DNA of 64,000 nucleotides from the IMG/VR virus record IMGVR_UViG_3300014826_000005, positions 1-64,000 of that record; one strand, given 5' to 3'. The DNA is from a virus. Lineage: Duplodnaviria > Caudoviricetes. The number at the start of each line of letters is the position of its first letter. The stretch's first letter is position 1. The position numbers and the translations under genes are program-made. Under the pieces are notes generated by a model. That model made no database searches and was not told the DNA's origin. It saw only the letters and a list, made by a program, of their open reading frames with translations. Positions 62,979-63,488 of this stretch are shown here, in pieces.

Positions 62979-63411
62979 ATTTTATACCCATACATAAAAT
63001 ACTTTCTACTGTTATACTATCAGCAGCAAATGCGATAATATTACTACCATTTCCGTTCTTAGTTCCACAACACTGTATTCTTGAGCCTTCAGCAAATAGA
63101 GTTAGCGTATTTCCATTAACTTTTCCTCTAGTAATATTTAAACTATAAGAATAGCTATAACCTCCACCGTCTCCATAAGGAACAATTAACCCACAGTCAA
63201 ATGTACCATCAGAATTTATTCTAGTAAATCCACCAACATTATAATATCCACTAGCCTGACCCTGTATTCTGATATATTTATACTTAGATATATTAGGAAT
63301 TGTTAATGTTAGATCCTTACTAAGTTTATAAGCTCCACCTGGAATATAAGAAGAAAAATCCACAATTTCAAACTTACTAATTACTTCAGCTCTTGCTGTA
63401 TTGATATTGCT
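62977..63411 (-). other. silent tail-fibre tip cassette B (144 codons, no RBS/ATG)
   Basis: Frame open from the core: SNINTARAEVISKFEIVDFSSY...ILCMGIK; the in-frame GTG at 63363 has no RBS. Confidence 0.7.
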
Positions 63412-63488
63412 ATATAATCTATAAAGAATATCTTAAACCTAAGTGTATAACTAGGTTTAAGATATTTATATTTTCATAAATAGCAATA
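63405..63488. repeat. back-to-back putative recombination sites: TAGGTTTAAGATATT-N13-ATAGCAATAT on each strand
   Basis: 15-bp inverted arms at 63427-63441 and 63452-63466; each is 13 nt from an outward-facing core. Confidence 0.8.

What the first reader, a model, noticed from the sequence alone, without database searches (positions are those of the whole stretch)
63405..63488. Two outward-facing recombination-site candidates with identical arm spacing
Seen: the 84-nt junction is symmetric about 63446/63447. Read outward on each strand it gives TAGGTTTAAGATATT, 13 unconserved nt, then ATAGCAATAT and an open frame. The 9-mer alone is expected by chance about twice in this window, but the identical 15-bp arm at identical spacing on both sides is hard to explain by chance. 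The fibre-internal site shares the core but only about 7/15 of the arm. Inference: the arm is a recombinase or accessory-factor binding site, and the asymmetry could bias which site pairs recombine, as asymmetric sfx sites do for Rci.
Basis: partly seen in the sequence, partly recalled or inferred. Interest (0 to 1): 0.72.

Follow-up and report, generated by a model that had tools for sequence, protein, structure and literature searches.

The report
Shufflon junction between phage tip cassettes
The 84-base palindrome is the spacer between two back-to-back silent recombination sites of a DNA-inversion "shufflon" that lets a giant gut phage swap the receptor-binding tip of a small tail protein; the swap point is the 10-base core, and what the palindromic arms do is still untested.

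Summary
At 63404-63489 the layout is core ATAGCAATAT, 13 nt, 15-bp arm, 10-nt loop, arm, 13 nt, core. An inverted copy that is 83/84 identical lies just beyond the window (64150-64235). A third, half-decayed copy lies at about 64588-64662. Every silent cassette (B-F) starts in the same codon phase at the core.

Relatives show that the core is a genuine switch point. A 116-aa constant N-terminus ending ...INSN is fused, right after NSN, to five unrelated C-terminal classes. These include orthologues of this window's B, C and D. Near-identical ~231-kb genomes show reciprocal expressed and silent states. Cassette C models as a TP901-1-like receptor-binding head.

- The expression gene is this small tail-protein gene, not the giant fibre. 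It is absent from this 72-kb record but present on a 74.6-kb assembly carrying the same fibre and chaperonin proteins.
- Close relatives' fibres lack the fibre-internal 9-mer (62097), and chance can explain it.

Whether the arm binds a recombinase, or is only a terminator/insulator hairpin typical of this phage, cannot be decided. No recombinase gene lies in the 72 kb. Earlier first-stage notes on this same genome had already flagged the locus.

The parts
63404..63413 (-). Core s2 (ATAGCAATAT read on the - strand); crossover site at the start of silent cassette B
   Evidence: In phase (Y/N-S-N-I) with cassette B. The P0129 fusion joins the constant part to a B orthologue exactly here.
63414..63426 (-). 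13-nt linker of type X (CTTTATAGATTAT on the - strand)
   Evidence: The same linker precedes s5 in J2. A variant precedes s6 in J3, and another lies before the C-type core in run X20.
63427..63466 (.). Palindromic unit: 15-bp arms (63427-63441, 63452-63466) around a directional 10-nt loop (63442-63451). Each arm supplies an in-frame TAA 7 codons before the outward cassette.
   Evidence: RNA hairpin of -17 to -21 kcal/mol with a U-rich tail on the Y side.
63467..63479 (+). 13-nt linker of type Y (TATATTTTCATAA)
   Evidence: It recurs before s4 in J2 (1 change) and on the core-less side of J3.
63480..63489 (+). Core s3 (ATAGCAATAT); crossover site at the start of silent cassette C
   Evidence: A contig of run X3 joins the constant gene's 3' end (coding TSQIDSKVDA) to this core plus the C leader.
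62980..63414 (-). Silent cassette B (145 codons, no start codon), the fixed left-end cassette next to the giant fibre's terminator
   Evidence: 86% identical to the C-terminal part of the 258-aa fusion P0129.
63479..63850 (+). Silent cassette C (124 codons, no start codon); predicted receptor-binding head domain
   Evidence: AlphaFold2 model with pLDDT 82. Foldseek best matches are TP901-1 and p2 receptor-binding-protein heads and adenovirus fibre knobs. C-family tips are fused to the constant part in P0130, P0132, P0134 and P0136.
63861..64000 (-). 3' part of silent cassette D. The cassette has 100 codons and runs on to record position 64160, beyond the window end. Further parts of the locus lie wholly beyond the window (record coordinates): J2 at 64150-64235, an inverted copy of J1 with cores s4 (-) and s5 (+); cassette E at 64225-64575 (+); J3 at 64588-64662, a hairpin with only the right-hand core s6; the 23-codon stub F; and a terminator at 64719-64755.
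   Evidence: D is 68% identical to the tip of fusion P0133. J2 is 83/84 identical to J1 when reverse-complemented.
62947..62978 (.). Bidirectional intrinsic terminator shared by the giant fibre gene (+) and cassette B (-)
   Evidence: (I4).
62097..62105 (+). 9-mer ATAGCAATA inside the 1417-aa fibre gene (58685-62938).
   Evidence: Absent from relatives' fibres and from runs X2, X3 and X20. Position 10 is A, not T. The count of stray 9-mers is within chance.

Best explanation
J1 is one copy of a 66-bp spacer module (linker X, hairpin, linker Y). The module sits between invertible segments of a multiple-inversion shufflon and is bounded on each side by an outward-facing 10-bp crossover core, ATAGCAATAT.

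How it most likely works. A site-specific recombinase, not yet identified, pairs the core at the 3' end of a small tail-protein gene with an oppositely oriented silent core. The constant part of that gene is 116 aa and ends ...INSN. Strands are exchanged inside the core. The inversion attaches a new start-less cassette in frame (...I-N-S-N-I...) and gives the virion a different receptor-binding head. The spacer module is never cut; it flips as a block.

Inferred layout. The constant gene with its promoter probably lies inside the invertible DNA and moves between cassettes. B is then the fixed left end and E-J3-F the fixed right end.

The hairpin. It closes each silent frame with an in-frame stop. 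It is the only terminator-like element downstream of cassettes C, D and E. It may also be an accessory binding site that marks silent sites as different from the armless expression site.

Shown: the anatomy; cassette phase; the module copies; re-association of linkers and cassettes; constant-tip fusions and reciprocal states in relatives; the receptor-binding-head fold.

Inferred: that the changes are programmed inversions; the kind of recombinase; the position of the constant gene; any function of the arms.
For: Anatomy
- Five silent cassettes in alternating orientation all begin at the core in one phase. They lack start codons and are closed by a TAA in the arm 7 codons upstream.
- There are three module copies. 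J2 is an exact inverted copy of J1, as expected if inversions end in the flanking cores.

Relatives' proteins
- The constant part is 90-100% identical in nine proteins. After NSN the tips fall into five unrelated classes: B (86% identical to ours), the C family, D (68%), G and H. P0129, P0130 and P0131 have 100% identical constant parts with B, C and G tips.
- Reciprocal states exist. The constant-B fusion and a 171-aa silent G frame are each recorded with longest contig 231,710 bp. The constant-G fusion and a 93-aa silent B frame are each recorded with longest contigs 231,614 and 232,399 bp.

Relatives' DNA
- A contig of X3 joins the constant gene's end to the core and the C leader.
- In X20 the same C-D segment has linker X where ours has Y. 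The breakpoints therefore lie between linker and cassette, that is, in the core.
- Contigs of four runs from four studies break at the hairpins, and junction bins carry 3-7 times the flanking depth.

Function
- The constant part hits tail-protein PHROGs. Cassette C folds like TP901-1 and p2 receptor-binding heads.
- The J3 hairpin passes the terminator scan directly after E. Long perfect AT-rich hairpins are this phage's usual gene-end structures.
Against: - No recombinase was found. Resolvase, Phage_integrase, large-serine Recombinase, IS110 DEDD, Y1 and rve searches of the 72 kb gave nothing at E <= 1.
- The constant gene itself is not in this record. The locus as assembled is therefore incomplete or collapsed, and its true order is uncertain.
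- All DNA evidence from other samples comes from assembled contigs and predicted proteins, not reads. Switching within one population is not shown, and differences could be fixed between strains.
- That a fusion and a silent frame share a genome is inferred from matching longest-contig lengths, not from contig identities.
- No E-type fusion was seen. In this record E and F have no oppositely oriented partner on their right.
- The relatives' DNA could not be fetched, so the arms there are known only from contig ends.
Confidence: 0.75

Rival explanations
1. First reader's reading. The 15-bp arm at a fixed 13 bp from the core is a binding site for the recombinase or an accessory factor. The difference between armed silent sites and the armless expression site steers which pairs recombine, in the manner of attP/attB or of asymmetric sfx sites. 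This is compatible with the best explanation; it concerns only the arms.
For: - The arm-core distance is 13 nt on both sides although linkers X and Y are unrelated (4/13 matches). It is kept in J2, J3 and relatives.
- The arms are invariant in six copies bar one base, while the loop varies in relatives.
- In run X3 the expression site has the core but no arm.
- Only about 10 bp are conserved at the crossover. That is short for a self-sufficient site compared with Rci's 19 bp (PMC11852207) and similar to Rin's 11 bp (PMC6109161).
Against: - J1, J2 and J3 are near-identical copies, so shared spacing may be identity by descent. Effectively it is one observation.
- A third, apparently armless context (peptide MFFIKKKNSIRAI before NSN) precedes three different B-type cassettes in relatives. 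Armless silent sites therefore seem to recombine too.
- There are no binding data, and no protein with matching specificity is known.
- The arm's 9/12 likeness to a Mu gix half-site is not significant (140 such 12-mers in 72 kb).
Confidence: 0.35
2. The hairpin is only an intrinsic terminator and translational insulator. It stops transcripts that leave an expressed cassette and keeps neighbouring silent cassettes untranslated. The cores alone are the recombination sites.
For: - The stem has 15 bp and -16.5 to -21.4 kcal/mol as RNA, with a U-rich tail on the Y side.
- J3 sits 22 nt after E's stop and passes the terminator scan.
- C and D have no terminator between them, so the junctions are the first hairpins downstream.
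- The record holds many comparable perfect hairpins, including the known gene-end terminators at 62947 and 64719.
- There is an in-frame TAA in each arm.
Against: - The 10-nt loop is long for a terminator, and J1 and J2 fail the simple scan.
- The X-side tail is weak.
- This reading does not explain the equal 13-nt spacing on both sides.
- No RNA run holds this phage, so 3' ends are unknown.
Confidence: 0.4
3. The giant 1417-aa fibre is also (or instead) an expression site. Inversion between the 9-mer at 62097 and s2 or s4 would replace its last 277 residues with B or D.
For: - The 9-mer lies in the right phase and orientation, 1.3 kb upstream of s2.
- A chance 9-mer within 1 kb on the right strand and in phase has a probability of roughly 0.005 (my estimate).
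Against: - Four relatives' fibres, 86-94% identical over the region searched, lack the 42-aa insert carrying it, and all keep the same C-terminus as ours.
- Runs X2, X3 and X20 have no cover on 62003-62168.
- No fibre-cassette fusion was found. In the search for longer proteins containing B, the only hit at E <= 0.001 was the small fusion.
- Position 10 is A, whereas all eight switch junctions in relatives code Ile (T at that position).
- The chance copy at 539 shares the same 13-mer TTAATAGCAATAA.
Confidence: 0.2
4. There is no dedicated recombinase. The different constant-tip combinations arose by rare homologous or microhomology recombination between co-infecting strains and are fixed strain differences.
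For: - No recombinase lies in 72 kb.
- All evidence for different states comes from different assemblies.
Against: - All junctions fall at one 10-bp sequence in one phase.
- The cassettes are start-less and arranged in inverted pairs around a conserved module.
- Identical constant parts (100%) carry three different tips.
- Reciprocal expressed and silent states occur in genomes within 100-800 bp of the same length.
- 10 bp is too short for efficient homologous exchange.
Confidence: 0.07

Closest known systems
Rin shufflon of Bifidobacterium prophages (Mavrich et al. 2018, PMC6109161)
   Same: - A phage receptor-binding-protein gene split into a constant N-terminal part and several start-less variable C-terminal cassettes in both orientations.
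- Each cassette is preceded by a short asymmetric repeat (11 bp there, 10 bp here).
- The variable parts resemble the TP901-1 receptor-binding head (their statement; here).
   Different: - Rin has its tyrosine invertase gene next to the cassettes; none is present in 72 kb here.
- The core sequence is unrelated.
- That paper describes no palindromic arm or spacer module between sites.
- Here the constant gene seems to move within the invertible DNA.
- The host phage is a ~232-kb jumbo phage.
R64 / IncI shufflon, Rci recombinase and sfx sites (PMC11852207)
   Same: - Multiple inversions among segments bounded by oppositely oriented short sites.
- The sites are asymmetric, with a variable flank on one side.
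- Pairs of sites face each other across short spacers between segments.
- The target is the C-terminal tip of an adhesin.
   Different: - An sfx site is 12 + 7 + 12 bp with 19 bp conserved; here only about 10 bp are conserved.
- There is no Phage_integrase-family gene in the record.
- sfx has no separate palindrome at a fixed distance.
- pilV's constant part lies outside the shufflon.
Gin / Cin / Min serine-invertase systems of phages Mu, P1 and p15B
   Same: Tail-fibre C-termini are switched by inversion. Min uses several crossover sites.
   Different: - Their crossover sites are 26-bp dyads. Mu gix, read from AF083977, is two 12-bp halves around 2 bp. The core here has no such dyad.
- The arm's 9/12 likeness to a gix half is at chance level, and the halves are 14 bp apart.
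- There is no Resolvase-family gene in the record.
Mycoplasma vsa / vsp / vpma loci, where a single promoter or expression site is juxtaposed to silent genes by site-specific inversions (PMC2268961)
   Same: One expression element is shuffled by inversions among many silent genes that lack it. The expression element lies within the rearranging locus. This matches the arrangement inferred here from constant-B fusions, given that B is fixed next to the fibre.
   Different: - Those loci are bacterial surface lipoprotein loci with an adjacent tyrosine recombinase (Xer1, Mbr, HvsR).
- In vpma and vsp the recombination sites lie in the 5' untranslated regions, according to that paper.
- The position of the constant gene here is inferred, not seen.

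Membership tests
Multiple-inversion shufflon (generic) | Several start-less alternative 3' cassettes in both orientations, each beginning with the same short repeat in the same codon phase | tested here: met
   Cassettes B-F; cores at 63404(-), 63480(+), 64150(-), 64226(+), 64654(+).
Multiple-inversion shufflon (generic) | One constant 5' gene part found joined at the repeat to different cassettes | tested here: met
   Nine fusion proteins with five unrelated tip classes; three tips on 100% identical constant parts. Seen in relatives and on a 74,646-bp contig recorded for this phage's fibre and chaperonin, not in this 72-kb record.
Multiple-inversion shufflon (generic) | Mixed orientations within one population (reads spanning alternative joints) | tested here: inconclusive
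   Only assembled Logan contigs were available. They break at the junctions and show extra cassettes and contexts in the source sample X1, but these cannot be told apart from co-existing strains.
Multiple-inversion shufflon (generic) | A dedicated site-specific recombinase | tested here: not met
   PF00239, PF00589, PF07508, PF01548, PF01797 and PF00665 are all absent at E <= 1 in six-frame searches of the 72 kb. About 160 kb of the genome, and the 2.5 kb by which the 74,646-bp contig is longer, could not be inspected.
Rci / sfx tyrosine shufflon | Site of a 7-bp core plus a conserved 12-bp arm (19 bp conserved) with a variable other arm | tested here: not met
   Only ATAGCAATAT (10 bp) is common to all active-looking sites, and the flanks differ on both sides. 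The architecture is per PMC11852207.
Rci / sfx tyrosine shufflon | Rci-like tyrosine recombinase adjacent | tested here: not met
   (within the 72 kb only).
Gin / Cin / Hin / Min serine invertase system | 26-bp dyad-symmetric crossover site (two 12-bp halves around a 2-bp centre) | tested here: not met
   There is no dyad at the core. The arm's 9/12 match to a Mu gix half is at chance level, and the halves are 14 bp apart.
Gin / Cin / Hin / Min serine invertase system | Resolvase-family invertase next to the invertible segment | tested here: not met
   (within the 72 kb only).
Rin-type phage receptor-binding-protein shufflon | Short asymmetric repeat before each variable cassette; variable parts are receptor-binding heads | tested here: met
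   10-bp core. The cassette C model matches TP901-1 and p2 receptor-binding heads (TM 0.54, E 7e-4). The comparison is from PMC6109161.
Rin-type phage receptor-binding-protein shufflon | Flanking tyrosine invertase (rin) | tested here: not met
Intrinsic terminator | Stable hairpin followed by a U tract, with RNA 3' ends at the tract | tested here: inconclusive
   J3 passes the scan; J1 and J2 do not, because of loop length or tail. Energies are -16.5 to -21.4 kcal/mol. No RNA run holds the phage.

The most novel reading that the evidence does not exclude
The shufflon uses two classes of site. Armless cores sit at the two ends of a mobile expression module. Armed cores (palindromic arm at 13 bp) sit at all silent cassettes. 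Only armless-armed pairs recombine, which would be an attP/attB-like partner rule applied to inversion. The enzyme is encoded far from the locus and may belong to neither the usual serine nor the usual tyrosine invertase families.
Probability: 0.15. Interest if true: 0.8.

Novelty: new variant of a known kind. Interest (0 to 1): 0.55.

Why it matters
Tail-tip shufflons are known from Mu, P1, p15B and Bifidobacterium prophages. I found no paper that mentions both 'jumbo phage' and 'shufflon'.

It carries at least eight tip cassettes for a small tail protein. Natural isolates are caught in different states. The site design is unusual: a 10-bp core, a fixed 13-bp linker and a palindromic arm, placed back to back as an 84-bp palindrome.

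It offers a tractable case for two questions:
- How does a very short core achieve specificity and inversion-only directionality? The Rin paper left this open.
- How do large virulent-type phages of anaerobes hedge host range?

It is also a practical warning. The 72,166-bp record lacks the expressed gene, probably through assembly collapse at these repeats or because the contig is shorter at one end.

Tried and rejected
1. Relatives' DNA could not be obtained.
- Exact arm-N13-core and hairpin patterns gave 0 hits in viral contigs.
- The hairpin pattern in metagenome contigs gave only 6 unrelated chance palindromes with no cores.
- The arm-core pattern in genome contigs gave nothing, as did the constant protein there.
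- blastn of the locus against GenBank phages gave no match.
- Searches of viral contigs with fibre, P0122 and P0135 found no close relative. L006 and L007 have no comparable repeats.

2. The idea that the arm is a Gin/Hin-type half-site is rejected. The match to a Mu gix half is 9/12, but 140 equally good 12-mers exist in the record, and the spacing is wrong.

3. A lox-like crossover inside the hairpin is rejected. It cannot fuse cassettes to the constant part, all three modules keep one X and one Y side, and the linker swap seen in X20 puts the breakpoints at the core.

4. The 9-mers at 539 and 56080 are chance copies inside unrelated genes.

5. Pfam and PHROGs gave nothing for cassettes B-E. 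A PDB sequence search of the constant-G fusion (P0131) gave nothing. The protein-atlas hits were unnamed.

7. Integron attC-like and IS200/IS605-like single-strand readings of the 84-nt fold were considered. They are not pursued, because no Y1 transposase or integrase is present and the cassettes are inverted, not tandem.
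Full report
WHAT IS THERE

The window is bases 1-64000 of a 72,166-bp IMG/VR virus record, rated about 30% complete, with 29.6% G+C. Near the finding lie:
- an endolysin amidase (55806-56711) and a prohead-protease-like gene (57795-58649);
- a 1417-aa tail-fibre gene rich in 'phage tail repeat' units (58685-62938);
- beyond the cassette array, on the - strand, genes that include a chaperonin.

I did not test that.

The described junction is exactly as stated. On the + strand it reads ATATTGCTAT (63404-63413), 13 nt, AATATCTTAAACCTA (63427-63441), a 10-nt loop, TAGGTTTAAGATATT (63452-63466), 13 nt, ATAGCAATAT (63480-89). 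It is far beyond chance:
- the exact 15-mer occurs nowhere else except in the sister junctions;
- the 10-mer core occurs only at the four sites of J1 and J2;
- the single-strand fold has z = -6.4.

THE REST OF THE LOCUS

I fetched 58000-72166 as L005 (window coordinate = L005 + 57999). They form J2 (64150-64235), which is an inverted copy of J1, 83/84 identical.

The two 13-nt linkers are two fixed types, X and Y. Each junction has one of each, and the loop orientation goes with them. The junction is therefore a directional 66-bp module flanked by outward cores.

J3 (about 64588-64662) keeps a Y-like linker, the hairpin, an X-like linker and core s6. On its left side the core has been replaced by the 3' end of cassette E.

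All silent cassettes are open from the core onward in the phase (N/Y)-S-N. None has a start codon. Each is closed by a TAA in the arm seven codons upstream.

| Cassette | Strand | Codons |
|---|---|---|
| B | - | 145 |
| C | + | 124 |
| D | - | 100 |
| E | + | 117 |
| F | + | 23 |

A strong bidirectional terminator (62947-62978) separates the fibre from B. Another (64719-64755) follows F.

IS IT A RECOMBINATION SYSTEM?

The relatives' DNA was out of reach. Protein collections and assembled public runs were still decisive.

Fusion proteins.
- A search for longer proteins containing cassette B returned, as its only hit at E <= 0.001, a 258-aa protein (P0129). It has 116 residues ending ...TTSQIDSKVDAINSN, followed by a B orthologue (86% identical).
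- Searching with that N-terminus gave eight more proteins whose first 116 residues are 90-100% identical. After NSN they fall into five unrelated classes: B, a C family (40-54% identical to our C), D (68% to our D), G, and H.
- P0129, P0130 and P0131 have identical constant parts with B, C and G tips.

Reciprocal states. The cluster look-up gives the longest contig on record for each protein:
- The constant-B fusion and a 171-aa silent G frame both have longest contig 231,710 bp.
- The constant-G fusion and a 93-aa silent B frame both have longest contigs 231,614 bp and 232,399 bp (the latter also in NCBI).
- For 231,258 bp, both B and G are recorded only as silent frames.
I read equal lengths as the same genomes. 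That is an inference, because contig identities were not shown.

DNA level, from Logan contigs of four runs in four studies:
- All contigs break at the hairpins.
- Junction bins carry 3-7 times the flanking depth.
- A contig of X3 joins DNA coding TSQIDSKVDA to the core and the C leader at window 63476.
- In X20 the same C-D segment is preceded by an X-type linker where this record has Y.
Linkers and cassettes have therefore been re-associated. This places the breakpoints in the core and not in the hairpin.

WHAT IS BEING SWITCHED?

The constant part hits 'tail protein' PHROGs at E 1e-6 to 1e-4. An AlphaFold2 model of cassette C has mean pLDDT 82 and was built from a 5-row alignment of C-family tips. 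Its best Foldseek matches are the head domains of lactococcal phage TP901-1 and p2 receptor-binding proteins, followed by adenovirus fibre knobs (TM about 0.54, E 7e-4). The cassettes are therefore most likely alternative receptor-binding heads of a small tail protein.

1. The expression gene is not the giant fibre.
- Four fibres of close relatives, 86-94% identical over the region searched, lack the 42-residue insert that contains the 62097 9-mer. All end with the same C-terminus as ours.
- Runs X2, X3 and X20 have no cover on 62003-62168.
- No fibre-cassette fusion was found.
- The 9-mer is followed by A, where every switch junction codes Ile, which requires T.
- Three stray 9-mers in the window against 1.8 expected is unremarkable.
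- I give the fibre site about a 0.2 chance of being functional.

2. This record lacks the constant gene.
- A tblastn search of the record with P0129 found only the B cassette.
- The fibre (P0001) and chaperonin encoded in this record are also on record with a 74,646-bp longest contig, and so is P0135, a 294-aa constant-G' fusion.
- The 72,166-bp record is therefore 2,480 bp short.
- The source run X1 also holds extra cassettes, at depths similar to the main phage: a G type, a second C type, and an E-like copy on a 3.7-kb contig.
- I infer that the missing piece was lost by collapse at a junction repeat, or lies at a contig end.

3. The constant gene probably lies inside the invertible DNA.
- B is fixed next to the fibre's terminator in this record and in contigs of X2, X3 and X20, yet it can be expressed as a constant-B fusion.
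- The constant gene, with its promoter, must therefore be able to come to lie to the right of B on the - strand. This arrangement resembles the mycoplasma single-expression-site loci (PMC2268961).
- A third upstream context, the peptide MFFIKKKNSIRAI before NSN, precedes silent B, B2 and B3 frames. It may be the back end of that module. This is inference.

THE ARMS

In run X3 the constant gene's site has the core but nothing like the arm (6/15 matches). Every silent site in this record has the arm at 13 nt.

Two readings remain, and they are not exclusive.
- Accessory or recombinase binding site that marks silent partners. In favour: equal 13-nt spacing across two unrelated linkers; invariant arms with a variable loop; a very short conserved core.
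- Terminator and insulator. In favour: a stable hairpin with a U-rich Y-side tail; position directly after E; it is the first hairpin after C and D; an in-frame stop; the same style as the many perfect hairpins elsewhere in this record.

The three junctions are near-identical copies, so their agreement is close to a single observation. No RNA run holds the phage. The arm's resemblance to serine-invertase half-sites was tested against Mu gix read from AF083977 and is at chance level.

RECOMBINASE

None of six recombinase or transposase families is present in the 72 kb at E <= 1. About 160 kb of the genome and the missing 2.5 kb could not be examined. The enzyme could still lie next to the constant gene, elsewhere in the phage, or in the host.

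COMPARISON WITH KNOWN SYSTEMS

- In function and layout the closest case is the Rin shufflon of Bifidobacterium prophages. It has an 11-bp asymmetric repeat before each receptor-binding-protein tip, TP901-1-like tips, and an adjacent tyrosine invertase (PMC6109161).
- R64's Rci/sfx system shares the multi-inversion logic and asymmetric sites, but it has 19 conserved bp (PMC11852207).
- Gin, Cin and Min share the target but not the site type.
- New here: the jumbo-phage setting; the short core combined with a fixed-distance palindromic arm, arranged as back-to-back pairs; the apparently mobile expression module; no recombinase nearby.
- No paper in the library holds both 'jumbo phage' and 'shufflon'.
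- I class it as a new variant of a known kind.

VERDICT

- The cores are real switch points of a tail-tip shufflon (0.75).
- The arm's role is open (binding about 0.35, terminator only about 0.4).
- The fibre-internal site is probably irrelevant.
- First-stage notes on this same genome had already flagged the locus. They agree on the anatomy but took the giant fibre as the expression site.

Noticed in passing
window 58685-62938: The giant fibre is modular. Relatives of 1081-1669 aa differ by presence or absence of whole blocks bounded by the repeated motif SSHTHTI(A/S)QITNLQSTLDGKAA, and this record has a 183-nt direct repeat (61868-62050 / 62657-62839, 79% identical) flanking one block. This points to block gain and loss by homologous recombination, independent of the shufflon.
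   Followed up: partly
L005 6577-6601 (record 64576-64600): The left side of J3 has a Y-type linker but no core; only CTAT remains, offset by 1 nt, directly after E's stop. In X1 and X20 other contigs continue after E (from L005 6592) with a different hairpin (AGATAGGATTTCCTATCT). This looks like a deletion of E's convergent partner cassette and its core, with the breakpoint inside or at the edge of the core.
   Followed up: partly
whole record vs a 74,646-bp contig: Proteins encoded in this record (fibre, chaperonin) are also recorded with a longest contig 2,480 bp longer, and so is the constant-G' gene P0135, which this record lacks. The IMG/VR record is probably collapsed at a junction repeat or cut at one end.
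   Followed up: partly
relatives (P0283, P0122, P0124; no DNA available): Three different B-type silent cassettes are preceded by the same 13 residues, MFFIKKKNSIRAI, and then NSN. This is an open frame with an ATG, unlike the arm context, which has a stop. It is a third kind of site context and might allow stand-alone translation of a 'silent' tip.
   Followed up: no
window, e.g. 59-100, 888-930, 19166-19200, 33780-33820, 49744-49830, 56770-56800, 57216-57260, 62947-62978; record 64719-64755: The record contains many perfect AT-rich hairpins with stems of 12 bp or more. The two I checked (62947-62978 and 64719-64755) sit at gene ends and pass the terminator scan, which suggests a characteristic terminator style for this phage.
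   Followed up: no
L005 6761-8987 (record 64760-66986), - strand: Two adjacent frames (205 and 374 aa) cluster with 602- and 619-aa proteins in other assemblies (cluster 3).
   Followed up: no
window 50736-50897, - strand: A second gene shares the HGNHVP...LRNDNTW motif of the constant part (41% identity over 71 aa). This motif is widespread in small tail proteins of gut phages.
   Followed up: no
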